From an uncultured Bacteroidales bacterium (GTDB taxonomy: Bacteria > Hydrothermota > 32-111): a stretch of DNA of 64,000 nucleotides. The stretch's first letter is position 1, and every line of letters starts with the position of its first letter. Of the stretch, positions 1 through 43,553 are shown one piece after another. The stretch covers positions 19,882-83,881 of the forward strand of contig CAZJAT010000005.1 of assembly GCA_964544145.1 (NCBI GenBank), given 5' to 3'. The translations under genes and the position numbers were made by a program. The notes below the pieces were generated by a model that ran no database searches, was not told where the DNA came from, and was given only the letters and a program-made list of their open reading frames with translations.

Positions 1-119
1 CTATGGAATATGCCGGAGGATTTGAAATTAAATTCAATAAATTCTCACTGGATTATACTTATTCTGCAACACAATATTTAAATGGTATGCATCTTGTGCA
101 ACTTAATTATAATTTCTGA
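1..119 (+). CDS. 3' end of an upstream gene, 5'-truncated by the window. The encoded C-terminus (...FSLDYTYSATQYLNGMHLVQLNYNF*) has alternating aromatic/hydrophobic beta-strand pattern and a terminal Phe, typical of an outer-membrane beta-barrel.
   Basis: Open frame from window edge to TGA at 117-119. C-terminal aromatic residue and strand-like periodicity. Confidence 0.3.
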   Translation, partial: MEYAGGFEIKFNKFSLDYTYSATQYLNGMHLVQLNYNF

Positions 120-127
120 GGTTTATT

Positions 128-2548
128 ATGAAAAGAATAATGTTGATTATCTTTACAATGATTCTTCTTCTGCAGATTTCAGCAGAAAAGATTGATATCA
201 ACAATACCAGTTTATCAGCTTTAGACACATTAATGATCCCTGATGATGTAATAAACGGAATCAAGGAATATATTGAGGAATACGGTGAGATTCAGAGTGT
301 CTATGAATTAAAAAACATAGAGGGTATTGATGATGAAACATTCGAAATACTGAAATTGAAACTGGCAATTTATCCCGATACTGCAGTTGACAGAACATCA
401 ATCTATATTATAAGACTGCAAGACAGATTGGCATCTGAGGAATCTCCAACACAGGGTGCAATTGATATATGGGAAAATATGCTTACACATAGAATGAATA
501 TTAATTCAGTTACTATGAATGAATTACTTCAGATACAGGGAGTAAATATAACAGATGCAGTTGCTATAATGAAAACCAGAAACTCTTTGGGTGATTTCAC
601 TTATGATACACAGATAAGAAGGTCGCCCGGCTTGACTTATTATGCATGGTCACAATTGAGAAATTATATTACATATGAAGAGCCTTCCTCAGATTGGGAA
701 TTCTCAGGTTATGTGAGAAGTAATATGAATTTCACAAATGATGACACTTATAATTACACATCATATACAGGATTGAAGTATTTGCTTTCAGCAGCAGCAT
801 ATCAATTATCTGTTTCAGCACCCGATTCTACCAATATTAGGGATCTCCTTCTTGATGCCGGTGTGAGCAGTGAAGATGTTGAGACAATGCGTGAAGATAT
901 GTTAAGTCAATATGAACAATTGGATAATTATGAAATGGATGGTGATTTTTCCAACAAATTCAGATTGAATTTCGGTAAATATATCAATGCCGGAGGTGTT
1001 ATTGATAAAAACGCAGGTATTGAGGAACTTCAATATAAGGGTTATGTAAATTTTACTAACCTGGGTTTTATTGATAATATTTATTTGGGAAATTACAGGG
1101 TATCAATTGGTCAAGGACTTGTGATGGATAACACAGATGAATACAGAGCAAGACGGTTTGATATAATAAAAGGTTTATTCCCCGATGTGACATCAACGGA
1201 GGGAAACAAATTGACCGGTATGGCTATTGACGGCAATATAGACAGATTCAATTATCTTTTCTTCGGTTCACAGGAAAAAAGAAATGCTGTTTTGAATTCT
1301 GACGGTACAGTCAATATGCTTATCCTGAATAATACAATATTTTCTGAATTCAAAGATAAGCTGGAAGAGAGAATGTTCGGCGGAAGATTTGCTTTTGATC
1401 TTGGAGGACTGGGTTTCCTGCCTCTATCTACACAGATTGGAGTTAGCGGTTTTCGTTCAGCATACAGCAGAACATTCATGATTGACACACTGATGATTGA
1501 TATACCGTTTGATAAAGACAATATAAGCACACCTGTATATACCCAGTCATTCACAGGGAATACAAGGGATGTTATAGGCATTGATTTCAGAACAGATTTC
1601 AAGAATATCTCATTTGAAGGAGAGGCATCAAAACAGGATGATGCTTATGCATATGTTGTCCGCAGTGACCTGATATTTGCAAATTTCTATTTGAAGACGA
1701 TTTTCAGGCATTATGATGCGGGTTATGATAATCCATATGCCAGGCCTTTATCAGAGCAGAGCAGATTTGATGATACTACATTTGAGAAGGAATACAGGTT
1801 GCTTAATCCTCTATTCTCTATGATTGTGGATGACCCGAGACCAAAACCTGAAGAGGGGATATATTTTGAAACAAGATTCAGAATAACAGATAAATTCACA
1901 ATAACAAAGGCATATCTTGATCTTTGGAAAACGCTTGATTACAATATGCATAATTACAGGTTTCAAGGAGAGCTTGAGTATAGACCGGTATTTCCAATCA
2001 GAATACGTCTAAAACAGAAGATTCAAGAAAAAAATCTTTATAAGGTTGTTCATTCAACTACATCTTTTACTTCTGAGACGACATTGAGGGTTTTTGCAAT
2101 ACTGTCCAATAATGACTATATTAATTTTGAAGCAAGGTATGGAAAGGTTGATTTGACAACCAATCAGGGGCTTGCGGATGATTATGTCATTGACGGTACT
2201 TATGTTAATGCATCATTCGAACACAGGATAACAGATTATTTTTCAGTGCTTGGAGGATTTGCGACTTGGAAAACCAATGGCATGAGTCAATGGATTTTCG
2301 AAGATACTGGTATTGATTTCCTCTATGGAGACGGGCAGAAATATTATATTACAATGATAGACCGTATTTCCGAAAATGTTTCCATGAGAGCAAAAGCATC
2401 GATGAATTATCAGGATATCCCGTTTTTTGGGATATATAATCCTAATTCTACATTTAGATATGAAAACGGTGATTTTATTTATATAAGAGATTTTGCTGAA
2501 TACAGCCAGTTATTTAATTTGTCTGTCCAGCTTGATATAAGATGGTAG
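128..2548 (+). CDS. Secreted/outer-membrane protein: signal peptide, two tandem ComEA-type helix-hairpin-helix DNA-binding modules, then a ~630-aa beta-rich C-terminal domain ending in Trp (probable OM beta-barrel).
   Basis: N-terminus MKRIMLIIFTMILLLQISAEK looks like a signal peptide. Residues ~25-80 (INNTSLSALDTL...INGIKEYIEEYGEIQSVYELKNIEGIDDETFEILK) and ~120-170 (NINSVTMNELLQIQGVNITDAVAIMKTRNSLGDF...SPGL) each match the ComEA (HhH)2 pattern NINTAT..EL..I.GVG...A.AI..YR...G.F....L..V.GIG. The rest is rich in alternating aromatic residues and ends ...LDIRW. Confidence 0.5.
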   Translation: MKRIMLIIFTMILLLQISAEKIDINNTSLSALDTLMIPDDVINGIKEYIEEYGEIQSVYELKNIEGIDDETFEILKLKLAIYPDTAVDRTSIYIIRLQDRLASEESPTQGAIDIWENMLTHRMNINSVTMNELLQIQGVNITDAVAIMKTRNSLGDFTYDTQIRRSPGLTYYAWSQLRNYITYEEPSSDWEFSGYVRSNMNFTNDDTYNYTSYTGLKYLLSAAAYQLSVSAPDSTNIRDLLLDAGVSSEDVETMREDMLSQYEQLDNYEMDGDFSNKFRLNFGKYINAGGVIDKNAGIEELQYKGYVNFTNLGFIDNIYLGNYRVSIGQGLVMDNTDEYRARRFDIIKGLFPDVTSTEGNKLTGMAIDGNIDRFNYLFFGSQEKRNAVLNSDGTVNMLILNNTIFSEFKDKLEERMFGGRFAFDLGGLGFLPLSTQIGVSGFRSAYSRTFMIDTLMIDIPFDKDNISTPVYTQSFTGNTRDVIGIDFRTDFKNISFEGEASKQDDAYAYVVRSDLIFANFYLKTIFRHYDAGYDNPYARPLSEQSRFDDTTFEKEYRLLNPLFSMIVDDPRPKPEEGIYFETRFRITDKFTITKAYLDLWKTLDYNMHNYRFQGELEYRPVFPIRIRLKQKIQEKNLYKVVHSTTSFTSETTLRVFAILSNNDYINFEARYGKVDLTTNQGLADDYVIDGTYVNASFEHRITDYFSVLGGFATWKTNGMSQWIFEDTGIDFLYGDGQKYYITMIDRISENVSMRAKASMNYQDIPFFGIYNPNSTFRYENGDFIYIRDFAEYSQLFNLSVQLDIRW

Positions 2549-3717
2549 GAGGAAAAATGAAAAAATTAATATTATCAATAGCACTTATTAGTGTCTCTTT
2601 GTTCGCTTTCAGTTATGGACTTATCAATACAGAAGAAATTACAGGAGACATTGTTGCGCCTCTTTCTGCTTTTTCAGGCGGAGCAGGCAATGTGGTATTC
2701 ATCAGTGACCCTGTGATGAATCCTGCTTTAAGAAAAACTGGTGAAAGTTATTTCATACAGCTGGGTTTTGGAGGTTCACAATTAAGGGAAACAAGAACAC
2801 AGTATGTATTTGATTCATATGACAACAATATAGGCGAAAAGACCATATATGAAAACAGTTATTTTTATGGTGAACCCTATCTGATGGCAGCTTATATTCC
2901 GCTGGCATCATTTGGTGTTTATCTTGGTTATGAAAATCTGTATTCAAAGGATTACAATTATGATAAAATATACAGGGATGATTATTATGTCACACTATTC
3001 TCCGAGAATTACCAAATGGCAGGAAATGTAAATGCATATTTTTTGTCAGTATCATATAAATGGAATGGTCTCACAATTGGGGGAAATTTTTCAATAATGC
3101 AGGGTGATGCAACGACATCGTATTCCATTGTATATGTTGACCCCTCTTATGTGGATTCAACAATGAATGTTGTAGATCAATATTCCGGTTTGAAGGGAGG
3201 ATTTGCATTGTCATATGAATATGATGATTATGCAGCAACTGTGTTCTATCATATTCCCACAATATTAACGGATGAACGTTCTATCGATATTATTGCATCT
3301 GACACAACATTCGCAGCCAGCGAGCTGGATGGATTCTTGCCCACTGTTTTTGGAGGCGGGTTCACATACACTCCATCAAATATCAGGCCTGTCACTCTGA
3401 TGCTTGAAGCAATCTACGAAAGGTGGAGCGAATTAAATGGTGCATTTGCAGAGTATAATGATGTAATCAAATATCACCTTGGAATTAAACATAAGATGAG
3501 AAAAGATTTCTCAATGTTATATGGGATTCTTTATGAACCATATAGAAAAAATAATCACATTGCAGATGTAGGGTTCACTTTAGGTGCAGGTTATGAAATC
3601 AATAATATTGAATTCATGCTGTCTTCTCAATATGTGCAGAATCAATATGTTGATTCAGGCATTAATTATACGAATAGATATATCAAACTGAATGCTGATG
3701 TTGGAATAACATTTTAA
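2542..3717 (+). CDS. Outer-membrane beta-barrel protein with signal peptide, FadL/TodX/PorV-like (NPA-containing N-terminal motif). Translationally coupled to the upstream gene by a 7-nt overlap.
   Basis: Signal peptide MKKLILSIALISVSLFAFS; motif SGGAGNVVFISDPVMNPAL resembles the FadL/PorV N-terminal signature; aromatic-rich strands; C-terminal ...VGITF. Confidence 0.4.
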   Translation: MVGGKMKKLILSIALISVSLFAFSYGLINTEEITGDIVAPLSAFSGGAGNVVFISDPVMNPALRKTGESYFIQLGFGGSQLRETRTQYVFDSYDNNIGEKTIYENSYFYGEPYLMAAYIPLASFGVYLGYENLYSKDYNYDKIYRDDYYVTLFSENYQMAGNVNAYFLSVSYKWNGLTIGGNFSIMQGDATTSYSIVYVDPSYVDSTMNVVDQYSGLKGGFALSYEYDDYAATVFYHIPTILTDERSIDIIASDTTFAASELDGFLPTVFGGGFTYTPSNIRPVTLMLEAIYERWSELNGAFAEYNDVIKYHLGIKHKMRKDFSMLYGILYEPYRKNNHIADVGFTLGAGYEINNIEFMLSSQYVQNQYVDSGINYTNRYIKLNADVGITF

Positions 3718-3728
3718 TAGGAAATAAT

Positions 3729-4307
3729 ATGAAAAGAATTTTATTAATTTTCGCAGTTCTTCTAATATGCATGTCTGTTACGGCTGATGATATTATTCCC
3801 TTTTACAATGATTGTGAAGGGGTTGCAGTTATCAATAAGAGAGATTATGTACCCAATGTAATCCAGCTGTTTGATAATGCTGAGAAAACAATTCATGCAG
3901 TAATATACCAGACAAGATATTATGAGGGATATCCTGACGGAACAAATCGTCAAATGTATAAAGCTATGTTCAGGGCTGTCGAACGAGGTGTCGAGGTCAG
4001 TGTCATTGCAGATCAATCATCATGGAATACATCTTCAACCCTTAAAAATGAGGAATTTGGTAAATTTATGGAAGAGAATGGGGTTAATGTATTCTATGAA
4101 CCGGCTGATAAAACAACACATTCAAAAATAATCATTGTGGATTCCCTATACACTGTTGTGGGATCCACCAATTGGTCATTTTATGCTTTGGAGAAAAATG
4201 ATGAGAGTGCAGTGATTGTCAAATCTGCTTTATTGGCATCAGATTATGAGGACTTCTTTTATAATTTGCTGGAATTTTCAACCGAAGAATTGACAATTCT
4301 GCAATAA
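3729..4307 (+). CDS. Secreted phospholipase D-superfamily protein with a single HKD motif (Nuc-endonuclease-like PLD domain).
   Basis: Signal peptide MKRILLIFAVLLICMSVTA. Perfect HxK(x)4D(x)6GSxN motif: HSKIIIVDSLYTVVGSTN. Size (192 aa) matches Nuc-type single-HKD proteins that dimerise to form one active site. Confidence 0.75.
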   Translation: MKRILLIFAVLLICMSVTADDIIPFYNDCEGVAVINKRDYVPNVIQLFDNAEKTIHAVIYQTRYYEGYPDGTNRQMYKAMFRAVERGVEVSVIADQSSWNTSSTLKNEEFGKFMEENGVNVFYEPADKTTHSKIIIVDSLYTVVGSTNWSFYALEKNDESAVIVKSALLASDYEDFFYNLLEFSTEELTILQ

Positions 4308-4316
4308 GGAGCAAAT

Positions 4317-4907
4317 ATGAAATATTTATTCTCAATAATCATTATTACATGTATGGCCGCATTTATTTCTGCAGAAAATACTGTTAATGAGAAAGGTTTG
4401 GAATATTATAAAGTAGAAGGTGTTTATCCTGTAAATAACAGGGATTATGCACCCAATATGATAAAACTTTTCAATAGTGCACAAAGCACAATACATATTT
4501 TTATGTTAGAAGGCGGTTATTATCCGAATTATCCCACAGGAGTTAACAGACAGCTATACACAGCATTGTTTGATGCTGTAGCGAGGGGGGTTGATGTTAA
4601 GATTATTCTTGATCAGGCAGGATATAATCCGGGTCAGTCAATGAGGAATCTTGAATTAGGGGAATTCCTCCGTTCCGGGGGGGTTGATGTGTATTATGAC
4701 AGCCCTGAGACGACTGTACACAGCAAGACATTAATAATTGACTCTATTTACACTATTGTAGGTTCAACAAATTGGTCTTACTGGGCACTGGATAAAAATA
4801 ATGAATGTTCAGTGATTGTCAAGTCAGCAGATGTGGCATATGAATATGAAAAATATTTCGCTGACATTATGAAAGAATCTCATTCTAAAATGACTGTCAT
4901 CGAATAG
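4317..4907 (+). CDS. Secreted phospholipase D-superfamily protein with a single HKD motif; paralog of the preceding gene (~50% identical by eye).
   Basis: Signal peptide MKYLFSIIIITCMAAFISA. HKD motif HSKTLIIDSIYTIVGSTN. Collinear similarity with the 3729-4307 product (NRDY.PN.I.LF..A..TIH...YYP.YP.G.NRQ.Y.A.F.AV.RGV.V..I.DQ). Confidence 0.75.
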   Translation: MKYLFSIIIITCMAAFISAENTVNEKGLEYYKVEGVYPVNNRDYAPNMIKLFNSAQSTIHIFMLEGGYYPNYPTGVNRQLYTALFDAVARGVDVKIILDQAGYNPGQSMRNLELGEFLRSGGVDVYYDSPETTVHSKTLIIDSIYTIVGSTNWSYWALDKNNECSVIVKSADVAYEYEKYFADIMKESHSKMTVIE

Positions 4908-4916
4908 GAGGCATAG

Positions 4917-5840
4917 ATGAAAAAAACAATAATCGGGTTTATTATAATAATTATTGCAATGCCTCTGATTTCACTTGACCTTATTTTACTCCATACAAAT
5001 GATATTAGAGATGTTTTTCAGGCAAGAGGCGCCACATTTATTAATCCTGATTTCCCGCCCATGTTGGGAGGTGTCTATTCCTTTGCGACTGCTGTGAAAT
5101 GGGAACAGGAAGATGCCGAAAAAGCCGGAAACATAATACTGCTTATGGATTCAGGTAATTTCACTGTGAAACATATTGAAGAGGATTCTATCACAATGGA
5201 CAAATCGGTAGATATCTTTAATTATCTTCATTATGATTGTGTCAATCTCGGTATTGATGAAATATCATCAGGATTTCACTTTATTGAAAAAAATATGAAT
5301 CGTTTCGAAATGCCTCTGCTTCTATCAAATATTAAACCAAAAGATAAAAATGTGCAGTTAAATACAAGGGACTATGTTATATTCAATGAAAAAGGTGTAA
5401 GAATAGGTGTTTTCGGTTTAACAACGGAATATGCGGTATTTGATTTACGAAGACATATTCTAAAAACTGTAGACATTGAACGTGAAATTCAGAAAGCAAA
5501 AATTCTTGTAAATGAATTGAAGGCTAACAGATGTGATGTCATTATCGGGCTTACGTCAATTGGTTTTGAACATGATATGAAATTGGCAGATGAAGTGCCT
5601 GGTATTGATGTGATACTATGCGGTTATGAAGGAAGAGGTATGAGAAATGCTATTGAAAGTCCCTTGAATCACACTATAATATTCAGGGGATATGGAGAAT
5701 TATCTTCGTATGATAAAATTGTTCTTGAACTTGATGAGATAAATAATATTTCCGGATATAAAGCGGAATCAGTTACAATCTTTGAGGAAGCATTTCCTTC
5801 TGATCCGGGAATGGAAGAAATTATGAGCAAATACGAGTAA
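4917..5840 (+). CDS. Membrane-anchored/secreted homolog of the 5'-nucleotidase (UshA/CpdB) N-terminal metallophosphatase domain. Most metal-ligand His/Asn are substituted and the C-terminal substrate-binding domain is absent, so this is a probable pseudo-enzyme.
   Basis: Collinear blocks with UshA: LILLHTND (cf. LTILHTNDHHG, HHG missing), IILLMDSGNF (cf. LLLSGGD), LGIDEIS (cf. IGNHEFD), MPLLLSNI (cf. FPLLSANI), RIGVFGLTTEY (cf. KIAVIGLTTDD), DVIIGLTSIGF (cf. DIIIAATHMGH), VILCGYEG (cf. MIVGGHSQ). N-terminal hydrophobic segment. Confidence 0.55.
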   Translation: MKKTIIGFIIIIIAMPLISLDLILLHTNDIRDVFQARGATFINPDFPPMLGGVYSFATAVKWEQEDAEKAGNIILLMDSGNFTVKHIEEDSITMDKSVDIFNYLHYDCVNLGIDEISSGFHFIEKNMNRFEMPLLLSNIKPKDKNVQLNTRDYVIFNEKGVRIGVFGLTTEYAVFDLRRHILKTVDIEREIQKAKILVNELKANRCDVIIGLTSIGFEHDMKLADEVPGIDVILCGYEGRGMRNAIESPLNHTIIFRGYGELSSYDKIVLELDEINNISGYKAESVTIFEEAFPSDPGMEEIMSKYE

Positions 5841-5855
5841 GCACTAGGAGGTCTT

Positions 5856-7352
5856 ATGGCAGAAAAAGTAAAAAATTATATTGACGGTCAATGGGTTGAT
5901 GCGAAAAGCGGAGAGACATTTGAAACAAGGATACCTGCAAAATGGGATGAAGTCCTTGCCATTGTATCCAAATCAGGAAAGGAAGATACTGATGAGGCAG
6001 TGAAAGCTGCAAAAAAGGCATTTAAAAAATGGAGCAAATTACCTGTTGCAAAGAGAGGAGAACTCTTAGGCAGAGTTGGTGATTTAATGGTGAAAAAGAA
6101 AGAGGAACTTGCTCAGCTTATGGCAAAGGAAATGGGAAAGGTTATTGCAGAAGCAAGAGGTGATGTACAGGAAGGTATTGATACCGCCTATTATGCATTT
6201 GGAGAGGGCAGACGTTTTTTCGGTAAAACATCTCCTTCAGAACTGCCCAATAAGGTAAATATCACATTTCTCAGACCTGTCGGTGTTGCGGGCCTAATTT
6301 GTCCTTGGAATTTCCCCATTGCAATACCTACATGGAAGATGTTCCCGGCTTTGCTTTCAGGCAATACTATTGTAATAAAACCAGCCAGTGATACACCTAT
6401 GTTAGTGGCAAAATTGTTCGAAATAATGATAGAGGCCGGTTTCCCGCAGGGTGTTATTAATATGGTAAATGGTCCGGGTTCAGCAGTAGGCAATGCTCTT
6501 CTTGAGAATACTGATGTCGGTGTCATATCATTCACCGGATCATCCGCTGTAGGCAAGCATATTGCTTCAGTGGGGGGCAAAAGTCTTAAAAAGGTATCAT
6601 TAGAATTAGGCGGAAAGAATGGCCAGATTGTTATGGATGATGCTGACATTGAACTGGCTGTTGATGGTGCTCTTTTTGGTGCATTCGGAACAGCAGGTCA
6701 GCGATGTACAGCTACCTCAAGAATAATAATTCATGAGGATGTTCATGATGAGTTTGTTCAGAAACTCAAAGATAGAGCTGAGAAAATGAAAATCGGAATG
6801 CCGTGGAAAGCTGAAACAGATATCGGTCCGGTCATCAATGAAGCAGCTTTGAATAAAATTCATTCATACACTGAAATTGGCAAGAATGAAGGGGCAACAC
6901 TTGTAACAGGAGGAGAACCTTATACTGAAGGTGAATGTGCCAATGGATGGTTTTACAGACCTACAATATTTACAGGTGTGAAACCCGGCTCACGATTAGA
7001 GCAGGAAGAGATATTCGGTCCCATTTTGTCGATTATCAAAGTTAAATCATTTGATGAGGCAATTGACGTTATAAATGATGTTGAATATGGTCTTTCATCA
7101 TCAATTTACACAAGAGATATAAATAAAGGCATGAAAGCTGTTGAGGATATTGATGCGGGTATTACCTATATCAATGGTCCCACTATTGGTGCAGAGTGCC
7201 ATATGCCTTTCGGCGGCGTCAAAGCAACAGGTAATGGTCACAGAGAAGGCGGATGGACAGTTTATGAGATTTATACGGAACAAAAAACCGTTTATATTGA
7301 TTATTCAGGACATTTGCAGAAGGCACAGATAGATACATCAATTGAGAAATAA
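5856..7352 (+). CDS. NAD(P)-dependent aldehyde dehydrogenase family protein
   Basis: 498 aa; ALDH hallmarks ELGGKN, catalytic Cys in GQRCTA, EEIFGPIL, FTGSSAVGKHIA; SD AGGAGG upstream. Confidence 0.85.
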   Translation: MAEKVKNYIDGQWVDAKSGETFETRIPAKWDEVLAIVSKSGKEDTDEAVKAAKKAFKKWSKLPVAKRGELLGRVGDLMVKKKEELAQLMAKEMGKVIAEARGDVQEGIDTAYYAFGEGRRFFGKTSPSELPNKVNITFLRPVGVAGLICPWNFPIAIPTWKMFPALLSGNTIVIKPASDTPMLVAKLFEIMIEAGFPQGVINMVNGPGSAVGNALLENTDVGVISFTGSSAVGKHIASVGGKSLKKVSLELGGKNGQIVMDDADIELAVDGALFGAFGTAGQRCTATSRIIIHEDVHDEFVQKLKDRAEKMKIGMPWKAETDIGPVINEAALNKIHSYTEIGKNEGATLVTGGEPYTEGECANGWFYRPTIFTGVKPGSRLEQEEIFGPILSIIKVKSFDEAIDVINDVEYGLSSSIYTRDINKGMKAVEDIDAGITYINGPTIGAECHMPFGGVKATGNGHREGGWTVYEIYTEQKTVYIDYSGHLQKAQIDTSIEK

Positions 7353-7357
7353 TAAAT

Positions 7358-7382
7358 GGGGAAATTTAATTTCCCCTTTTTT
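7358..7382 (+). terminator. Rho-independent terminator after the aldehyde dehydrogenase gene
   Basis: GGGGAAATT-T-AATTTCCCC perfect 9-bp inverted repeat followed by TTTTTT, 5 nt after the stop codon. Confidence 0.7.
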
Positions 7383-7394
7383 CTGGAGTGAATT

Positions 7395-7874
7395 ATGAAA
7401 TTAAAGAATACAGTTCTTTTTTTACTTATAGTATTAATATTTACAGGATGTGAGATATTACCCTTTTTACCGACAGCAGATATTACATTGACATTCAATC
7501 CTAATCCTGCTTATGACCCGTATTATACGAGCACCTATGGATGGACTTGGGATGTAAATGTCCGTATAAGGGAAACAGAAAACATTAATATTACATTAGG
7601 TAATTATGGACCCGGCAATGCTGCATGCATCTCCAAATTCCTAACAGCTAATAATCAAGTGGTCAGCACAGATATTTTCTATGCAAATGACATTGAGGAA
7701 TTTTTTGGAACATTGGAGATTTCCGGAAATGCCAGTATATCACATGATGCGACATTCTCTTCATTTACCTATGATGAAGGCAAATTTGTTGAAACATATT
7801 ACGGTATTGATGAAAATGGTGTTATTGTATCATGCACCGATACATTGATACTCATCAATAATACAAAGAAATGA
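7395..7874 (+). CDS. Hypothetical lipoprotein (lipobox-like LIFTGC)
   Basis: N-terminal MKLKNTVLFLLIVLIFTGCE resembles a signal peptidase II site; no recognisable domain. Confidence 0.45.
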   Translation: MKLKNTVLFLLIVLIFTGCEILPFLPTADITLTFNPNPAYDPYYTSTYGWTWDVNVRIRETENINITLGNYGPGNAACISKFLTANNQVVSTDIFYANDIEEFFGTLEISGNASISHDATFSSFTYDEGKFVETYYGIDENGVIVSCTDTLILINNTKK

Positions 7875-23729: not shown

Positions 23730-26700
23730 ATGAATAAAATACCCAAAGCCAAGACTGTAAGAATTGGTTTGAGTTTTGTAAATCCACTTGTAATAATACT
23801 ATCCATTTTATTATCATTTACCTATATTTATGCAGATGATTATGTTCTGAAATCAGGTTGTGAATATGATTATCCGCCTTATTGTTTTGTTAATGAGGAT
23901 TCAATAGCAGATGGGTTTTCTGTAGAACTGCTTCAAGCAGTTATAGATGCGATGAATCTTAAGGTTTCCTTTAAAACATCAAATTGGAATGAATTGAAGA
24001 GTGAATTGGAGCAAGGAAAACTTGATGTGCTTCCCCTTGTGGGAAGAACACCTGAACGTGAGCATTACTTTGATTTTACAATACCCTATTTTCCTATGCA
24101 TGGTGCTATTGTTGTGCGTAAGGATAATCAAAGTATAAAGGTATTAGATGATATTAATGGAAAAAAAATCGCTGTTATGAGCGGGGATAATGCACAGGAA
24201 TTTGTGCAAAGTATTGATATAAATTGTGATATTATCACAACCCCCACATTCAAGGATGCTCTTAAAGATTTATCTGAGGGGAAATATGATGCAGTAATTA
24301 TACAGAGGCTATTAGCGATACAATTAATAAATGAATTAGGTATCAAGAATCTGAGAATTATTGAACCGCCTTTAGTTGAATTTAAGCAGAGTTTCTGTTT
24401 CGCAGTTCATGAAGGCAATAAGGAATTGTTGGCAAAACTTAATGAGGGATTGGCAATTGTTATTGCTGACGGTACTTATAGAATGCTTCACACAAAATGG
24501 TTTGCTTCTATACACTCCATGAAGAATCAGTCAATACTTGTCGGTTGTGATTATAATTATCCCCCATGGGAATTTCTTGATGAAAACGGAAATCCTGCAG
24601 GTTATAATGTTGACCTTACTAAAGCCATTGCCTTGGAAATGAATCTCAATATTGATTTCTATGTTTCTGACTGGGATGATGTTATCATGAGACTTAAAAA
24701 TGGTGACATAGACATTATACAGGGAATGTTCTACTCTGAGGAAAGAGCAAAAGTATTTGATTTGTCAAACCCTCACTTTGTAATCACTCAGACAGCCGTA
24801 ATTAGGGAAGATCATGAGAGAATCAATAGTGAAGAGGAATTACAATACATGACAGTGATTGTAGAAAAAAGCGATATTATGAATGAATATTCATTAAAAC
24901 ATGATATTGACAGTATTATTGAAGTAGAAACAACAGAGGAAGCCCTGCAGCTGCTGTCATTAGGAATCGGAGATTGCGTGCTTATGGGAAGAATACAGGC
25001 TCAGTATTTAATTGACAAAAATGAGTTGACAAATCTGGTAATCAGTGATTTGAGGATTGCATCATATGAATATTGTTATGCTGTATTTAAGGGTGATGAC
25101 AATATGCTGTCCATTTTTGATGAAGGATTGAGATTTATCAAGGAATCTGGCAAATACAGGGAATTACGAAACAAGTGGTTTGGTGTTTATGACAGAGATA
25201 ATTATTTTTCTATAATAAAGAATTCAATTATAATTTTGGTATTATTGATAATAATAATCATTGCAATAATGACTTGGTCATTTTCTCTCAGGCAAATGGT
25301 CCGAAGACGTACCATGGAGCTGGAAGTAGAGATTGATGAGCATAAAAGAGCTGAATCTGCATTAAAGGATGAAGAAAATCTACTTGCAGCTGTTATGAAT
25401 AATATTCCCGTTATGTTGATACAATACAGCAGCAATACTGATATCCGTATTTTAAATAATGAATTTGAGAAAAAGACAGGATGGAAGAATGAGGATTTGC
25501 AGGGCATTGATTTAATGTCTGAATTGTTTCCGGATGATAATTACAGAAGGGATGCAATTAAATATATGAGCAGTACATCGCTGAAATGGAAGGAATTTAC
25601 GCTTTTAACCAGAGATAGAGGGATGATAGATACAGAATGGTGCAGTGTAGAACTAGACAATAATGTGTATATTGGAATTGGGATTGATATCACTGAAAGA
25701 AAGAAGAATGAAGAACAGCTGAGAAAGATCGACAGACTTGATTCTCTTGGAATACTTGCAGGAGGCATTGCCCATGACTTCAATAATCTGCTTACCGGAA
25801 TTATAGGTAATCTCACTTTAATTTACTCAGACATTAAGGGTAAGAGTGAACTGGAGAGTGCTATTGAAGATGCTCTAAAATCATCAAACAGTGCAAGAGA
25901 CTTAACTAAGCAATTGCTTACATTCTCAAGTGGAGGAAGACCTGTAAAGAAAATACTGTTAATGAAAGAGATTATCAAAGATGCAGCTAGATTTGTTATG
26001 AGCGGTTCCAATAATAATTTAATAATGGATATTGCAGATAATTTGTGGAATGCAGAAGCAGATGAGTCGCAGATAAAACAGGTTTTACAAAATATTATAA
26101 TGAATGCCAATCAGTCTATGCCTTCAGGAGGCAATATAGATATATATGCTAAGAATGTGTATTTTGATAAAGTGGATTATCATATAAATAAAGGAAATTA
26201 TATTGAAATATGTATTTCAGATTCAGGTATAGGAATGGAACCGGATTTGATTGCAAAAGTTTTTGATCCATATTTTACAACTAAACAGGGTGGGAGCGGA
26301 TTGGGGCTTGCTATTGTCAGTTCCATTATTAAATCACATTCCGGATATATTGATATTAAGAGTGCTCCCGGAAAGGGTACTGCTGTAACAGTATATTTGC
26401 CGGCAACACTGAAAAGTGCAGATGAAATTGAAGAATTATCTATTATGGATAATACGAAGAGACAAGGACGTATACTCGTAATGGATGATGAGGATATGAT
26501 TTTAAAATTGGTGACAAAAATGCTTACAAGGGCAGGATACAGTGTTGAAACTGCGAAGAATGGGCAGGATGCTATCAATAAATATAGTGAAAGTATGAAT
26601 AATAACCAAAAATTCAATGCTGTTATACTGGATTTGACCATACCGGGGGGTATGGGAGGAAAGGAAACGGCTCAGCATATTCTTGATTTGGACATAAATG

Positions 26701-26849
26701 CCGTTCTTATTGTTTCAAGCGGTTATTCAAGTGATGATACAGTATCAAATTACACTGATTTCGGCTTTAAGGGTATGGTATTAAAACCATATCATATGCA
26801 GGATATGCTCAATGAAATCGAACGAGTACTTTTTAAAGAAAATAAATAA
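23730..26849 (+). CDS. Hybrid sensor histidine kinase/response regulator with two periplasmic solute-binding (SBP_bac_3-like) domains, TM helix, PAS, HisKA, HATPase_c and C-terminal REC domain
   Basis: Signal/TM at N-terminus; two repeats of the D..LL.......N.......W..... SBP pattern; TM IIILVLLIIIIIAIM; H-box GIAHDFNNLLTGIIGN; G-boxes DSGIGME/GGSGLGLA; REC ILVMDDEDMILKL...DLTIPGGMGG...KPY. Confidence 0.85.
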   Translation: MNKIPKAKTVRIGLSFVNPLVIILSILLSFTYIYADDYVLKSGCEYDYPPYCFVNEDSIADGFSVELLQAVIDAMNLKVSFKTSNWNELKSELEQGKLDVLPLVGRTPEREHYFDFTIPYFPMHGAIVVRKDNQSIKVLDDINGKKIAVMSGDNAQEFVQSIDINCDIITTPTFKDALKDLSEGKYDAVIIQRLLAIQLINELGIKNLRIIEPPLVEFKQSFCFAVHEGNKELLAKLNEGLAIVIADGTYRMLHTKWFASIHSMKNQSILVGCDYNYPPWEFLDENGNPAGYNVDLTKAIALEMNLNIDFYVSDWDDVIMRLKNGDIDIIQGMFYSEERAKVFDLSNPHFVITQTAVIREDHERINSEEELQYMTVIVEKSDIMNEYSLKHDIDSIIEVETTEEALQLLSLGIGDCVLMGRIQAQYLIDKNELTNLVISDLRIASYEYCYAVFKGDDNMLSIFDEGLRFIKESGKYRELRNKWFGVYDRDNYFSIIKNSIIILVLLIIIIIAIMTWSFSLRQMVRRRTMELEVEIDEHKRAESALKDEENLLAAVMNNIPVMLIQYSSNTDIRILNNEFEKKTGWKNEDLQGIDLMSELFPDDNYRRDAIKYMSSTSLKWKEFTLLTRDRGMIDTEWCSVELDNNVYIGIGIDITERKKNEEQLRKIDRLDSLGILAGGIAHDFNNLLTGIIGNLTLIYSDIKGKSELESAIEDALKSSNSARDLTKQLLTFSSGGRPVKKILLMKEIIKDAARFVMSGSNNNLIMDIADNLWNAEADESQIKQVLQNIIMNANQSMPSGGNIDIYAKNVYFDKVDYHINKGNYIEICISDSGIGMEPDLIAKVFDPYFTTKQGGSGLGLAIVSSIIKSHSGYIDIKSAPGKGTAVTVYLPATLKSADEIEELSIMDNTKRQGRILVMDDEDMILKLVTKMLTRAGYSVETAKNGQDAINKYSESMNNNQKFNAVILDLTIPGGMGGKETAQHILDLDINAVLIVSSGYSSDDTVSNYTDFGFKGMVLKPYHMQDMLNEIERVLFKENK

Positions 26850-26880
26850 ATTCGGATATAATTAATACAATGGAGGAGTA

Positions 26881-39478: not shown

Positions 39479-39930
39479 AAAAAGTAAAAAATAAATCCTA
39501 TTCCTGCATTAAAATCCAGAGAAGTAGCAGGAATAACATCTAATATGGGTGAGCATTCAATGAACAGTTCAATAGGAATGTCAGGGAATTGCAATCCTGC
39601 TCCTGCAGTAAATTTTACTCCCACATTGGTGTTATTGTTTGTTTTGATTCTGATTCCCGGTCCTGTATAGAAAAAAAGAGGTAATGTGATTTCTCCATCA
39701 TCGCTTTTCACGGAATAATAGAAATTGTAAGAATAACCAAAACTTCCGTAAACCATACTAGCCGGAATATCCCACGCAATAATCGAATTAATGCTGTTAT
39801 TCTGATTGAGATTCACTTTTAATTTTATGCCTGTTGGATTACCTGCATAAATGCCTGCCCCGAAATGATTGGATGCATGCGATGTTAAAAAGACAATTAG
39901 AGAGAGGATGATGATTACAGCTCGTTTCAT
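39475..39930 (-). CDS. Small outer-membrane beta-barrel-like protein with signal peptide
   Basis: MKRAVIIILSLIVFLTSHA; Gly/aromatic-rich alternating strands; C-terminal FIFYFL. Confidence 0.4.
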   Translation of the reverse strand: MKRAVIIILSLIVFLTSHASNHFGAGIYAGNPTGIKLKVNLNQNNSINSIIAWDIPASMVYGSFGYSYNFYYSVKSDDGEITLPLFFYTGPGIRIKTNNNTNVGVKFTAGAGLQFPDIPIELFIECSPILDVIPATSLDFNAGIGFIFYFL

Positions 39931-42900: not shown

Positions 42901-43553
42901 TCACTCAGGATATCGGGAAAGAAATCCTTGTTGAATTTTGAAGAAGGTATTTTTGTTTTTGCTTTTTTATTTTTTTTAGTAATGTTCAAATCAACTGTAA
43001 GAATATTATTCATTTTTTTATAGGGTATGAGAGATTTCTTAAGCTGAGGAAGGATTTGTGTATCCAGACAGACAGTATCCGGTTTTGCATGCTGCTGAAT
43101 CTTTATTGCATCTCTTATCCCACTGCCTTTAAAATAATATGTTTTAAATATACTGGATATTATTTCCCATTGAATATCGCCCTTAGCAATCCCCAATCGT
43201 ATATGCATTTTATTTTCAGTATTTTCGTTGAATCTCTTGAATGTTTGAATAATATTGCTGCCTATTTCAATGATTTGCTCAATACTGTCTGTAAAGCGAA
43301 ATACTGCTGTAAATGCATCTCCTGCAAAATTGGTTATAAATCCGTTATTGGTATATACAATATCAGTAATTTCACCGAATGTCTGGTTAAGAATATAACC
43401 GGTTTTTTCGGCGCCCGTTTTACCTTCACTGAGTAATTGTTCCAATAGGGGAGTGAAATTACAAATATCACAAGAAATAACATATGCATCGGATGTTCCA
43501 AAATCATTATTTATGTGTTCCTGTATAAAACCAGGTATGAGATTTTTTTTCAT
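39930..43553 (-). CDS. Multidomain signalling protein: tandem class III adenylate/guanylate cyclase homology domains (complementary pseudo-heterodimer) + STAND/AAA+ NTPase + C-terminal TPR array
   Basis: CHD1 ~aa 18-160 (VISCDICNFT, NFAGDAFTAVF, LGIAKGDIQWE). CHD2 ~aa 215-345 (LVIFGAPF, GFIGSKNWMEYTVLGDIVNTASRIS). Walker A IEGESGIGKTRIV, Walker B VFDDMMWAD. More than 8 TPR-like repeats (YYNKGDFNEA, LGNMGQVYNDMGEKD...). Confidence 0.8.
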   Translation of the reverse strand: MKKNLIPGFIQEHINNDFGTSDAYVISCDICNFTPLLEQLLSEGKTGAEKTGYILNQTFGEITDIVYTNNGFITNFAGDAFTAVFRFTDSIEQIIEIGSNIIQTFKRFNENTENKMHIRLGIAKGDIQWEIISSIFKTYYFKGSGIRDAIKIQQHAKPDTVCLDTQILPQLKKSLIPYKKMNNILTVDLNITKKNKKAKTKIPSSKFNKDFFPDILSELSIKGEFRKTVPLFFNFSNDIERNELNRLITSIMEYSIEMNGYFNKVDFTEKGGIILVIFGAPFASENMIENALNMAVKIGDEFKHLNISAGIDYGISYTGFIGSKNWMEYTVLGDIVNTASRISCLSKGKIYISERVKQESRTFEFAFENYFNVKGKKKKISLYSIESKKNRVIDFASPFVSRENEQNRIITYIENTFKKSKSPIIYIEGESGIGKTRIVYHTLQNSKILFHYGLCDSVLFEPMSPIKQVIASIMDFGYYDDRDRKKSKADKYLASHFSEQYETYSKYIHHFFSLADEGILKHISGKEMQETTFYIIRQILIKECSLRRQIFVFDDMMWADEETIDFLNYAFQDNILNAGLIIVFREKNRVTDRIRLKHISIPLNNFNFKGVKLFITAFFEKKPSDTLLQLLWEKSEGNPLFLEQITIHLANNDLIEHNGNSINLSKADYELPSSIDRLIVSRLDSLSAVTREGIKKASVFGKEFEIILLNLLVGKNIGKILTEGERNKIISVISKNLGVFRHTLLHEIAYKMQFEDELKKLHSRIASLYEKQYSNDLSPYYEILYYHYKQANIKNKKMHYLKLAIERYMSTYSNEIAIKLIYELLKLDISKSQQAHAYINLGNIMLHTANYDEGVKVLQKAIRLCKRNILLCANAYKTLGEIYWSLGKYKKAIVQYNSSFNLYKKKNDIEGMSKIYELMGLVYYNKGDFNEAIIQFNNALKYAEKNRKLRNSIFSNMGLVLYRQGDDQRAMKYYQRALKDAEKSNDLNSQAKLHLRIGLIYRNSESFKQSIHHNSISLRINRKIGNRRSEAIVLGNMGQVYNDMGEKDRVLEYYFKALEIDKDVNNLENETIVLGNIANFYATEGQYAKSLKYYKDALIIDRQIGNKWSEAIDLGNMAELYKLQRKNSEADKYFAKCISIIRKMNARFPLSHFLSKRAELKMIMNEFGSAIKFANEALTIAHDIDKKNIITFCDSILEQINSKMELK

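What the first reader, a model, noticed from the sequence alone, without database searches (positions are those of the whole stretch)
128..5840. All-secreted five-gene locus: ComEA-like DNA-binding OM protein, FadL/PorV-like barrel, two single-HKD nucleases and a dead 5'-nucleotidase homolog; candidate extracellular-DNA capture/degradation system
Five consecutive co-directional genes with overlaps or short gaps all encode exported proteins. Gene 1 carries two complete ComEA-type (HhH)2 DNA-binding modules in front of a large beta-rich (barrel-like) domain. Gene 2 is a FadL/PorV-like barrel. Genes 3 and 4 are paralogous Nuc-type single-HKD PLD-superfamily proteins with perfect HxKx4Dx6GSxN motifs; this class includes the secreted endonuclease Nuc. 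Gene 5 is a 5'-nucleotidase N-domain homolog with most catalytic His replaced. DNA-binding, nuclease and nucleotidase-like parts in one exported module suggest eDNA scavenging (phosphate/nucleoside acquisition) or a DNA-uptake accessory system. I do not know of a described outer-membrane protein carrying tandem ComEA modules.
Basis: partly seen in the sequence, partly recalled or inferred. Interest (0 to 1): 0.75.

Follow-up and report, generated by a model that had tools for sequence, protein, structure and literature searches.

The report
Outer-membrane DNA capture and breakdown locus
An uncultivated WOR-3-group bacterium carries a gene cluster, shared by relatives in several little-known phyla, that looks built to catch DNA outside the cell, pass it through a previously undescribed outer-membrane barrel and cut it up, although no activity has been tested.

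Summary
The five genes are real and have the stated domain content. Gene 1 is two HHH_3 modules plus a ~600-aa beta-barrel. Gene 2 is a FadL/BamG-fold barrel. Genes 3 and 4 are two intact single-HKD PLD proteins. Gene 5 is a truncated 5'-nucleotidase N-domain lacking its metal-binding motifs.

The unit is larger than reported. The window starts inside an upstream PorV/PorQ-like barrel gene (U2). Before that lies a secreted protein (U1) with two OB-fold modules, a weak DUF5689 match and a T9SS-type tail.

In 86 related loci from WOR-3, TA06, Edwardsbacteria, Cloacimonadota and others the order is U1-U2-G1-G2-[PLD]-G5. PLD genes occur only where G5 is the dead short form (23 loci). Intact 5'-nucleotidases occur without PLD (26 loci).

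The closest known systems are the Bacteroidales ddb DNA-utilization loci and the Riemerella transformation genes. These share a DUF5689 surface protein but use a TonB-dependent transporter, which G1 is not.

Caveats: the HhH hairpins have lost their second glycine, and module 1 is acidic here. Topology and transport direction are inferred, and nothing is tested experimentally.

Verdict: a new variant of a known kind, built around an undescribed barrel family.

The parts
3..119 (+). 3' end (38 codons plus stop) of U2, a 287-aa PorV/PorQ-like outer-membrane barrel. The gene starts 745 nt before the window.
   Evidence: The frame-3 translation ...GGFEIKFNKFSLDYTYSATQYLNGMHLVQLNYNF* matches the C-termini of U2 in L003 and L007. 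The source contig L087 holds the full gene at 6700-7563. NCBIfam PorV/PorQ family gives 27.7 bits here over the full length, and 48-80 bits in relatives, all below the cutoff of 90.
128..2548 (+). G1: an 806-aa outer-membrane protein made of a signal peptide, two HhH2 modules, a helical insert and a large beta-barrel.
   Evidence: ORF; HHH_3 twice; AF2 pLDDT 84.5, pTM 0.81. The family has 161 representatives at E<1e-30 and relatives in 246 GTDB species.
128..184 (+). G1 signal peptide (MKRIMLIIFTMILLLQISA | EK)
   Evidence: Read directly from the sequence; no predictor was run.
179..364 (+). HhH2 module 1 (aa 18-79). It is acidic (net charge -10); hairpin 1 has no GhG motif and hairpin 2 reads GID.
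491..673 (+). HhH2 module 2 (aa 122-182). It is neutral here and mildly basic in most relatives; its hairpins read GVN and GLT.
   Evidence: The alignment to ComEA 8dfk and to the tandem HhH modules of EEPD1 9yi2 supports the assignment.
695..2545 (+). G1 barrel region (aa ~190-806). DSSP gives about 24-25 long strands, and the chain ends in the aromatic beta-signal ...QLDIRW.
1712..1852 (+). Most conserved segment of the G1 family (aa 529-575, YDxGYDNPYxRxFSEQxRFDDTxFEKxYRL..DDPxPKPE). It is a long non-strand connection between two strands and is a candidate lumen plug or gate.
   Evidence: Consensus and invariant columns, DSSP, coordinates. The plug or gate role is inference.
2542..3717 (+). 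G2: a 391-aa FadL/BamG-fold outer-membrane barrel (386 aa if translation starts at the alternative ATG at 2557).
   Evidence: AF2 pLDDT 82.8. Foldseek hits are BamG 9n2d_B at E 1.5e-18 and TM 0.74, then FadL. It is homologous to the gene in the same position in distant loci (26% identity, E 2e-21 to L006).
3729..4307 (+). PLD-A: a 192-aa exported single-HKD PLD-superfamily protein of the Nuc type.
   Evidence: PLDc_2 at 76.6 bits. NucT and DrmC models match below their cutoffs.
4119..4172 (+). HKD motif of PLD-A (HSKIIIVDSLYTVVGSTN)
4317..4907 (+). PLD-B: a 196-aa paralog of PLD-A, 43.5% identical to it.
   Evidence: PLDc_2 at 91.7 bits. The best solved relative is the Nuc endonuclease 1BYR at E 3e-8. 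Paralogy is shown.
4719..4772 (+). HKD motif of PLD-B (HSKTLIIDSIYTIVGSTN)
4917..5840 (+). G5: a 307-aa exported 5'-nucleotidase-family protein consisting of the N-domain only. All five metal and catalytic motifs are lost and the C-terminal substrate domain is absent, so it is a conserved pseudoenzyme.
   Evidence: NCBIfam SoxB/UshA at 62-68 bits, far below the cutoffs. Aligned with the intact long orthologs. It is conserved as well as G1 is (67% to L003, 28-38% to distant clades).
7358..7376 (+). First terminator-like hairpin downstream, GGGGAAATTTAATTTCCCC followed by a T-run. It lies after the aldehyde dehydrogenase gene (5856-7352), which follows G5 by 15 nt. The aldehyde dehydrogenase is not conserved next to G1 in distant relatives.

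Best explanation
This is a cell-envelope system for capturing, importing and breaking down extracellular nucleic acid. It is a DNA-utilization locus built from T9SS-style parts rather than from a TonB-dependent transporter. All steps below are inferred; only the architecture and its conservation are shown.

1. U1 is a secreted protein with two OB-fold modules, a DUF5689-type region and a T9SS-type C-terminal domain. It binds DNA at the cell surface and is held there through that C-terminal domain by the adjacent PorV/PorQ-like barrel U2.
2. G1 is a roughly 24-stranded barrel with no close structural relative. It forms the outer-membrane conduit.
3. G1's N-terminal tandem HhH2 modules sit in the periplasm. 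They either bind incoming DNA, as ComEA does, or dock the periplasmic enzymes.
4. G2, a FadL/BamG-fold barrel, is an accessory partner of G1. The analogy is BamG, which binds the BamA barrel and anchors a surface protein.
5. In the periplasm the DNA is degraded. In most lineages an intact UshA-type 5'-nucleotidase (long G5) releases nucleosides and phosphate.
6. In this genome's lineage G5 has become a truncated, catalytically dead scaffold, and one or two Nuc-like single-HKD nucleases were added. Here there are two paralogs, which may form a heterodimer.
For: Domain content and models.

Source contig: L087 shows U1 and U2 directly upstream of G1 in this very genome, with 0 mismatches over 13,717 nt.

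U1: an OB-fold at 39 bits (cutoff 27) and the ExeM/NucH N-terminal region at 49 bits. Among 27 U1-like proteins, 13 match the OB-fold model, 9 match DUF5689 (best 4e-14), 17 match FlgD_ig and 12 match Por_Secre_tail. None has a nuclease catalytic domain.

Synteny: the order U1-U2-G1-G2-[PLD]-G5 holds over 86 loci from several candidate phyla. Cloacimonadota keep a bare G1-G2-G5(long) unit.

PLD and G5: there is a perfect split. 23 loci have PLD plus short G5, and 26 have long G5 without PLD. The long forms keep all metallophosphoesterase motifs and score 205-231 bits against UshA/CpdB models.

PLD proteins: all 34 keep the HKD motif and a signal peptide. The nearest solved relative is the Nuc endonuclease.

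Dead G5: it is conserved as well as G1 is.

Second cargo-anchor pair: some loci add a PHP-type CehA/McbA metallohydrolase with a T9SS tail plus its own PorQ-like barrel.

Literature: DUF5689 proteins partner outer-membrane barrels in DNA uptake and utilization in Bacteroidota (PMC8459023, PMC12478041). PorV and PorQ anchor PorU and PorZ at the surface (PMC5562754). BamG is a FadL-fold barrel that binds BamA and anchors BamH (PMC12611786).

Periplasmic placement of the HhH modules: some relatives carry TPR repeats N-terminal to the HhH modules. In my knowledge of PgaA, BcsC and PelB, such repeats on outer-membrane barrels are periplasmic.
Against: - All four HhH hairpins lack the second glycine of the GhG motif. 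Module 1 has net charge -10 and module 2 has net charge 0 in this protein. ComEA-specific models are not reached: TIGR00426 scores 40.8 against a cutoff of 53.1, and TIGR01259 scores 38.5 against 152.
- In this genome DUF5689 scores only 16.7 bits (cutoff 28.6) and PorV/PorQ only 27.7 bits (cutoff 90).
- The DSSP strand count is ambiguous (24 or 25). I had no model coordinates, so topology, pore size and the presence of a plug are unknown.
- No nuclease or DNA-binding activity has been shown for any member.
- Synteny among close relatives also includes housekeeping genes, so only the distant loci are informative.
- The direction of transport cannot be read from sequence.
Confidence: 0.5

Rival explanations
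1. The envelope machinery is the same, but its purpose is DNA uptake for natural transformation. G1 would be the outer-membrane entry point feeding ComEC, as proposed for the Riemerella DUF5689/barrel/HhH proteins. The nucleases would process the DNA rather than catabolise it.
For: In Riemerella, a DUF5689 surface protein, its neighbouring outer-membrane barrel and a separate HhH protein are each essential for transformation. The ddb paper links such loci to transformation systems. One WOR-3 subclade keeps only U1-U2-G1, with no degradative enzyme. From my own knowledge, not checked here, the single-HKD nuclease NucT has been tied to transformation in Helicobacter pylori.
Against: Most loci couple G1 to a 5'-nucleotidase, which is a catabolic enzyme that yields nucleosides and phosphate. 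I did not examine whether the same genomes carry comEC, dprA or comF.
Confidence: 0.15
2. The locus is a surface display and anchoring platform. The three barrels (U2, G1, G2) serve only to secrete or hold U1 and the enzymes at the cell surface. In this reading the HhH-like modules are protein-docking domains. DNA may be degraded outside the cell, but it does not pass through G1.
For: U2 is PorV/PorQ-like and U1 carries a T9SS-type tail. A second cargo-plus-PorQ-like pair sits in the same loci. G2 resembles BamG, which anchors a surface protein. The HhH hairpins are degenerate and module 1 is acidic. HhH-like folds with no DNA role exist: relatives of G1 also hit the T2SSK and PsbU models.
Against: Cloacimonadota keep G1-G2-G5 without an adjacent cargo or PorQ-like gene. 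A ~600-aa barrel with highly conserved internal loops is more than an anchor needs. The PLD proteins and G5 have plain signal peptides and no T9SS tail, which points to a periplasmic location, so the substrate must reach them.
Confidence: 0.15
3. The locus is not about nucleic acid. It is an outer-membrane lipid or envelope-biogenesis module, with the PLD proteins as phospholipases and G2 as a FadL-type transporter of hydrophobic molecules. It lies next to lpxL-like, lptC/A/B and rpoN genes.
For: PLDc_2 proteins also match cardiolipin synthase models weakly. G2 has a FadL fold. In this clade the locus follows Lip_A_acyltrans, OstA-like, ABC_tran and sigma-54 genes, and the start codon of U1 overlaps the stop codon of rpoN.
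Against: The lpt/rpoN neighbourhood is lost in distant loci while the U1-U2-G1-G2-G5 order persists. The partners that are conserved are an OB-fold/DUF5689/ExeM-like protein and 5'-nucleotidases. The best solved relative of the PLD proteins is a nuclease.
Confidence: 0.07
4. The locus is an exporter of an anionic polymer, such as extracellular DNA or a phosphodiester-linked polymer. G1 would then be analogous to the TPR-plus-barrel exporters PgaA, BcsC and PelB, and the periplasmic enzymes would modify the polymer.
Confidence: 0.05
5. The locus is an anti-phage defence element, because the PLD proteins match DISARM DrmC and Mko models.
For: PADLOC DrmC scores 35-44 bits and NCBIfam DrmC 40-50 bits.
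Against: The scores are far below the cutoff of 133. Only the shared PLD domain matches. All PLD copies have signal peptides. The locus has no DrmA, DrmB, methylase or helicase partners, and genes 1, 2 and 5 have no PADLOC hit.
Confidence: 0.01

Closest known systems
Bacteroidales ddbABCDEF DNA-utilization loci (Sharan et al., PNAS 2025, PMC12478041)
   Same: It has the same polysaccharide-utilization-locus-like logic. One co-directional cluster combines a surface DUF5689 DNA-binding protein encoded next to an outer-membrane barrel with exported nucleic-acid hydrolases. U1-type proteins here match the same Pfam family, DUF5689.
   Different: The transporter DdbC is a TonB-dependent-type barrel. 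G1 has no Plug, TonB_dep_Rec or CarbopepD_reg match and instead carries HhH2 modules. Surface attachment here is by a T9SS-type tail plus a PorQ/V-like barrel, not by lipidation. The enzymes are PLD and 5'-nucleotidase types. There are two further barrels (U2, G2). The hosts are WOR-3, TA06 and Cloacimonadota, not Bacteroidota.
Riemerella anatipestifer natural-transformation genes RA0C_RS04920, RA0C_RS04915 and RA0C_RS02645 (PMC8459023)
   Same: The three ingredients match: a DUF5689 surface protein, an adjacent outer-membrane barrel and an HhH protein proposed to receive DNA in the periplasm.
   Different: In Riemerella the HhH protein is a separate gene elsewhere in the genome, and the barrel carries a carboxypeptidase-regulatory-like domain. 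Here the HhH modules are fused to the barrel. The role in transformation has not been tested here.
ComEA, the periplasmic DNA receptor of competence systems
   Same: Both have the HHH_3 fold, each module has the same length, and both are exported.
   Different: The ComEA-specific models are not reached. The GhG hairpins are degenerate and the charge is acidic or neutral. The modules are tandem and fused to an outer-membrane barrel. As a two-module unit, the best solved match is the tandem HhH region of EEPD1 (9yi2).
BamG of the Bacteroidota BAM complex, and FadL
   Same: The G2 model superposes best on BamG (TM 0.74, E 1.5e-18) and then on FadL.
   Different: Sequence identity is only 14-18%. 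The NCBIfam BamG model gives no hit for the window protein and 50-65 bits (cutoff 250) for its distant orthologs. G2 is encoded next to G1, not next to bamA.
Nuc (pKM101) and NucT single-HKD nucleases
   Same: They share a single HKD domain, a mature size of about 170 aa, a signal peptide and an intact catalytic motif. Nuc 1BYR is the best solved relative.
   Different: Scores are 30-42 bits against NucT equivalog cutoffs of 211-351. Here two diverged paralogs sit in tandem. Activity is untested.
[quoted passage not shown]
   Same: A protein with a T9SS-type C-terminal domain is encoded next to a small PorV/PorQ-family barrel. Some loci have two such pairs. The known pairs anchor surface proteins in this way.
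   Different: The matches are below the family cutoffs. The cargo is a DNA-binding or hydrolase protein rather than secretion machinery. I did not check for a T9SS in this genome.

Membership tests
ComEA (competence DNA receptor) | HhH2 domain (Pfam HHH_3) | tested here: met
   54.5 bits against a cutoff of 27, in two stretches covering profile positions 5-65 of 65.
ComEA (competence DNA receptor) | Reaches the ComEA-specific models TIGR00426 and TIGR01259 | tested here: not met
   40.8 against 53.1, and 38.5 against 152.
ComEA (competence DNA receptor) | Canonical GhG hairpins and a basic DNA-binding surface | tested here: not met
   The hairpins read none, GID, GVN and GLT. Net charge is -10 for module 1 and 0 for module 2. 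Most relatives have a module 2 charge of +1 to +7.
ComEA (competence DNA receptor) | Binds double-stranded DNA in the periplasm | not testable with these tools
   Needs a gel-shift assay and localisation experiments.
TonB-dependent transporter / DdbC-type barrel | Plug domain, TonB box and a 22-strand TonB_dep_Rec barrel recognisable by profile | tested here: not met
Bacteroidales ddb-type DNA-utilization locus | DUF5689 protein encoded next to the outer-membrane barrel | tested here: inconclusive
   In this genome the match is 16.7 bits (cutoff 28.6), although it aligns over profile positions 2-217 of 217. Relatives score 28.7 bits (L003) and reach E 4e-14 at best.
Bacteroidales ddb-type DNA-utilization locus | Exported nucleases in the locus | tested here: inconclusive
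   There are two exported Nuc-like HKD proteins. Their enzyme family differs from the Ddb nucleases, and their activity is untested.
Bacteroidales ddb-type DNA-utilization locus | Locus required for depletion of exogenous DNA | not testable with these tools
   The organism is uncultivated.
FadL / OMPP1 / BamG barrels (gene 2) | 14-strand FadL fold | tested here: met
   Foldseek gives TM 0.74 to BamG and 0.68 to FadL at probability 1.00.
FadL / OMPP1 / BamG barrels (gene 2) | Sequence-profile membership (Pfam Toluene_X, NCBIfam BamG NF053685) | tested here: not met
   The window protein has no hit at E<=1. Its distant orthologs score 50-65 bits against a cutoff of 250.
PLD superfamily, Nuc-type single-HKD nuclease (genes 3 and 4) | PLDc_2 domain with the HxKx4Dx6GSxN motif in a single-domain protein of about 170 aa | tested here: met
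   76.6 and 91.7 bits. The motif is intact in all 34 orthologs.
PLD superfamily, Nuc-type single-HKD nuclease (genes 3 and 4) | Reaches a nuclease equivalog model (NucT) or has shown nuclease activity | tested here: not met
   NucT models score 20-42 bits against cutoffs of 211-351. Nuc 1BYR is still the best solved relative at E 3e-8. Activity is untestable here.
5'-nucleotidase / UshA family (gene 5) | Dimetal-site motifs DxH, GD, GNH[ED], H and GHxH | tested here: not met
   They are replaced by NDIRD, SGN, GIDE, TSIG and GYEG. The long orthologs in other loci keep all five.
5'-nucleotidase / UshA family (gene 5) | C-terminal substrate-binding domain (5_nucleotid_C) | tested here: not met
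   The protein ends at aa 307, before that domain begins. The long orthologs of 504-588 aa carry it.
T9SS cargo with PorV/PorQ-family anchor (U1 and U2) | C-terminal sorting domain on the cargo, and a PorV/PorQ-family barrel encoded next to it | tested here: inconclusive
   The C-terminal sorting domain is found in 17 of 27 U1-like proteins by FlgD_ig and 12 of 27 by Por_Secre_tail (best 2.9e-11). U2 scores 27.7-79.7 bits against a cutoff of 90. I did not check the genome for core T9SS genes.

The most novel reading that the evidence does not exclude
The G1 family may be a new kind of outer-membrane DNA translocon. It would be a large (~24-strand), TonB-independent barrel with its own periplasmic ComEA-like modules, fed by a T9SS-anchored OB-fold DNA catcher. 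If so, whole candidate phyla (WOR-3, TA06, Edwardsbacteria, Cloacimonadota) would have a route for taking up DNA that needs neither a type IV pilus and secretin nor TonB.
Probability: 0.3. Interest if true: 0.85.

Novelty: new variant of a known kind. Interest (0 to 1): 0.62.

Why it matters
How DNA crosses the outer membrane is understood for secretin and type IV pilus systems. For TonB-dependent DdbC-type transporters in Bacteroidota it has only recently been proposed.

A conserved barrel fused to ComEA-like modules would be a third architecture. It always sits next to DNA-binding and nucleotide-degrading partners, in at least 246 species of uncultivated, mostly anaerobic sediment and digester lineages. 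It would point to extracellular DNA as a nutrient, or a gene source, for these phyla.

It also offers a clean natural experiment in enzyme replacement: the active 5'-nucleotidase is swapped for a dead scaffold plus HKD nuclease(s).

The parts are small enough for heterologous tests: the PLD proteins, the HhH modules and the U1 OB modules.

Tried and rejected
- AlphaFold-database fold search for G1: the library was not available.
- TonB-dependent transporter or DdbC membership for G1: rejected, with no profile match and only generic barrel similarity.
- BamG membership for G2: rejected at the sequence level, since only the fold resembles it.
- Defence-system reading (DISARM DrmC): rejected, because only the shared PLD domain matches, the proteins are exported and there are no partner genes.
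- Lipid or LPS-biogenesis reading based on the lpt/rpoN neighbours: rejected, because that neighbourhood is not kept in distant loci.
- A nuclease catalytic domain in U1: searched for and not found in 27 U1-like proteins.
- Rfam scan of the window: only one tRNA, nothing in the locus.
- Promoter scan: uninformative, with 54 sites against 46 expected by chance.
- Literature searches for WOR-3 with ComEA or extracellular DNA returned nothing. I found no description of an HhH-barrel fusion.
- Exact strand count and sidedness of G1: I could not settle these because model coordinates are not exposed. Reasoning from DSSP strand parity suggests 24 barrel strands with the N-terminal region in the periplasm, but a count of 25 is also possible.
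- NJ tree of G1: it is too weak at deep nodes to say whether the PLD-plus-dead-G5 state arose once or several times.

Full report
**Observation**

The window holds five co-directional ORFs at 128-2548, 2542-3717, 3729-4307, 4317-4907 and 4917-5840. The gaps between them are -7, 11, 9 and 9 nt.

- Gene 1 (G1, 806 aa) has two HHH_3 stretches, at aa 18-79 and 122-182 (54.5 bits, cutoff 27), and no other family at E<=1.
- Genes 3 and 4 are PLDc_2 proteins (76.6 and 91.7 bits).
- Gene 5 (G5) matches only the N-terminal half of SoxB/UshA-type 5'-nucleotidase models, at 62-68 bits and far below their cutoffs.
- Gene 2 (G2) has no hit.

All five N-termini look like signal peptides, but this was judged by eye only. 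The region has ordinary composition, about 35% GC. Rfam finds nothing in it.

**Organism and true extent of the locus**

G1 homologs come from candidate division WOR-3, TA06 and 'Stahlbacteria' metagenome bins.

The window's first 119 nt encode the C-terminus of another gene, ending ...LVQLNYNF*. The source contig was recovered as L087 and is identical to the window over 13,717 nt, with window position 1 equal to L087 position 7445. On that contig two more co-directional genes precede G1:
- **U1** (657 aa) has a signal peptide and two OB-type modules. It also carries a C-terminal beta-sandwich tail.
- **U2** (287 aa) ends in an aromatic beta-signal.

In this genome U1 scores as follows:
- OB-fold: 39 bits (cutoff 27).
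- ExeM/NucH N-terminal region: 49 bits.
- DUF5689: 16.7 bits (cutoff 28.6), although the alignment runs over the full length of the profile.

U2 gives a full-length but weak PorV/PorQ-family match of 27.7 bits (cutoff 90).

Relatives give stronger signals. Among 27 U1-like proteins:
- 17 match FlgD_ig.
- 13 match the OB-fold.
- 12 match Por_Secre_tail (best 2.9e-11).
- 9 match DUF5689 (best 4e-14).
- None has a nuclease catalytic domain.

U2 orthologs reach 48-80 bits on the PorV/PorQ model.

**Conservation**

A profile of 31 G1 homologs finds 161 cluster representatives at E<1e-30. All ten distant members I checked keep the HHH_3-plus-barrel architecture, and two add N-terminal TPR repeats.

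A scan of GTDB species representatives finds relatives in 246 species. The best 80 are labelled WOR-3, TA06, Edwardsbacteria, Cloacimonadota or Coatesbacteria, with a few odd labels.

I built HMMs for each neighbouring gene and tabulated 86 loci.
- The recurrent order is U1-U2-G1-G2-[PLD]-G5.
- One WOR-3 subclade keeps only U1-U2-G1.
- Cloacimonadota keep a compact G1-G2-G5 unit, with unrelated genes on the opposite strand upstream.
- The lpt/rpoN genes upstream and the aldehyde dehydrogenase and nrdR genes downstream are shared only with close relatives. They are therefore neighbours, not parts of the system.
- In the window the aldehyde dehydrogenase follows G5 by 15 nt. The first terminator-like hairpin comes only after it, at 7358-7376.

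**The PLD/G5 switch**

G5 comes in two forms. Long forms (504-588 aa) carry Metallophos plus 5_nucleotid_C and keep the DxH, GD, GNH[ED], H and GHxH motifs. They score 205-231 bits on UshA/CpdB-type models. Short forms (275-309 aa) stop before the C-domain and have lost essentially every metal and catalytic residue. In the window these positions read NDIRD, SGN, GIDE, TSIG and GYEG.

PLD genes sit between G2 and G5 in all 23 loci with a short G5, and in none of the 26 loci with a long G5.

The dead G5 is conserved about as well as G1: 67% against 75% identity to L003, and 28-38% against 35-39% to distant clades. It is therefore retained for some non-catalytic role.

On a rough NJ tree the PLD-plus-short-G5 state appears in at least four clades. 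Two PLD copies occur only in the window's clade. All 34 PLD ORFs keep HxKx4Dx6G[ST]xN and a signal peptide, and the window paralogs are 43.5% identical. The best solved relative is the Nuc endonuclease 1BYR (E 3e-8), ahead of a phospholipase and MitoPLD/Zucchini.

**Structures**

The G1 model is confident (pLDDT 84.5, pTM 0.81). It has two helical HhH modules, one strand, a three-helix insert at aa 205-270, and then about 24 long strands ending in ...QLDIRW.

The following is my inference from DSSP strand parity, taking the C-terminus as periplasmic. The long, highly conserved connections at aa 326-362, 385-412, 450-477 and 529-575 fall on the periplasmic or lumenal side. The variable 766-789 loop falls outside. 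The N-terminal region is periplasmic if the barrel has 24 strands. The TPR-extended relatives fit a periplasmic N-terminus. I could not verify any of this without model coordinates.

The G2 model (pLDDT 82.8) matches BamG from three Bacteroidota BAM structures (E 1.5e-18, TM 0.74) and then FadL. BamG is a FadL-fold barrel that binds the BamA barrel and anchors the surface lipoprotein BamH (PMC12611786).

**Caveats on the 'ComEA' label**

The modules align with ComEA and, as a tandem unit, with EEPD1. All four hairpins have nevertheless lost the second glycine of the GhG motif, reading none, GID, GVN and GLT. Module 1 is acidic in most family members (-10 here). Module 2 is neutral here and +1 to +7 in most relatives. 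ComEA-specific NCBIfam cutoffs are not met. DNA binding by G1 is therefore plausible for the family but doubtful for this particular protein. The nucleic-acid reading rests mainly on the partners.

**Comparison with known systems**

In Riemerella anatipestifer, transformation needs three proteins: a DUF5689 surface protein, the adjacent outer-membrane barrel and a separate HhH protein (PMC8459023).

In Bacteroides thetaiotaomicron the ddbABCDEF locus is required for depletion of exogenous DNA. It encodes three nucleases, the TonB-dependent-type transporter DdbC, the DUF5689 protein DdbD and DdbE. It has been compared to polysaccharide-utilization loci (PMC12478041).

The present locus shares the logic and the DUF5689/OB surface protein, but it differs in three ways:
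- It replaces the TonB-dependent transporter with an HhH-fused barrel.
- It replaces lipoprotein anchoring with a T9SS-type tail plus a PorQ/V-like barrel. PorV and PorQ anchor PorU and PorZ in the known system (PMC5562754), and T9SS genes are reported in other FCB phyla including Cloacimonadota (PMC11285876).
- It uses PLD and 5'-nucleotidase enzymes.

Some loci add a second tail-bearing cargo, a CehA/McbA PHP-type metallohydrolase (95.5 bits, cutoff 80), with its own PorQ-like barrel. I found no paper describing the HhH-barrel family.

**Mechanism, verdict and scores**

Best explanation (confidence about 0.5): U1 catches DNA at the surface and is held there by U2. G1, with G2 as an accessory partner, passes DNA or oligonucleotides into the periplasm, where its HhH modules receive the DNA or dock the enzymes. 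Periplasmic HKD nucleases degrade it, together with a 5'-nucleotidase in lineages where that enzyme is still active. In this genome G5 is a dead scaffold. Every step of this mechanism is inferred. Only the architecture, the conservation and the PLD/G5 switch are shown.

Rivals:

| Reading | Confidence |
|---|---|
| Same machine, used for natural transformation | 0.15 |
| Surface anchoring platform with no passage through G1 | 0.15 |
| Envelope or lipid function | 0.07 |
| Polymer export | 0.05 |
| Anti-phage defence | 0.01 |

Novelty: a new variant of a known kind, namely DNA-utilization or uptake loci, built around an undescribed outer-membrane barrel family. Interest: 0.62.

Noticed in passing
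L006:13414-15647 (similar in L019, L021, L025, L035, L055): After the long G5, these loci carry a second cargo-anchor pair. It is a 446-aa CehA/McbA (PHP-type) metallohydrolase with a T9SS-type tail (95.5 bits, cutoff 80), followed by a 298-aa PorV/PorQ-family barrel (79.7 bits). A RecJ-like DHH protein comes next. The metallohydrolase may be the surface nuclease or phosphoesterase of loci that lack PLD.
   Followed up: partly
P0105 (1251 aa) and P0142 (668 aa), distant G1 relatives: These carry TPR repeats N-terminal to the HhH modules and barrel. This recalls the TPR-plus-barrel polymer exporters PgaA, BcsC and PelB.
   Followed up: no
L087:4713 (source contig, 2732 nt upstream of window position 1): The start codon of U1 overlaps the stop codon of the sigma-54 gene rpoN. 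That gene in turn follows lptB-like and OstA-like genes. In this clade the DNA locus may therefore be transcribed together with the lpt-rpoN cluster.
   Followed up: no
window 5856-7352: An aldehyde dehydrogenase lies 15 nt after G5 with no terminator in between. Its best models are alpha-ketoglutaric semialdehyde or 2,5-dioxovalerate dehydrogenase, at 538 bits and below the cutoffs. A strong promoter-like site (11 of 12 matches) lies inside the end of G5 at 5653-5680.
   Followed up: partly
window 23730-29580: A 1039-aa hybrid sensor kinase with two SBP_bac_3 domains is followed by an 899-aa protein. The only Pfam match of that protein is a FlgD_ig-type (T9SS-like) C-terminal tail, so it is another candidate surface cargo.
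   Followed up: no
window 39930-43553 (- strand): A 1207-aa protein combines an adenylate/guanylate cyclase domain, an AAA_16 ATPase and MalT-like TPR repeats. This is a STAND-type signalling protein.
   Followed up: no
window 58285-60483 (- strand): A 732-aa patatin-like phospholipase has about 500 residues with no Pfam match after the patatin domain.
   Followed up: no
window 56067-57764: A 565-aa ORF has no Pfam match at E<=1e-5.
   Followed up: no
L004:10512-10931: In the WOR-3 subclade that keeps only U1-U2-G1, the gene after G1 is a 139-aa Pyr_excise protein (pyrimidine-dimer DNA glycosylase family). This is another DNA-acting protein next to G1.
   Followed up: no
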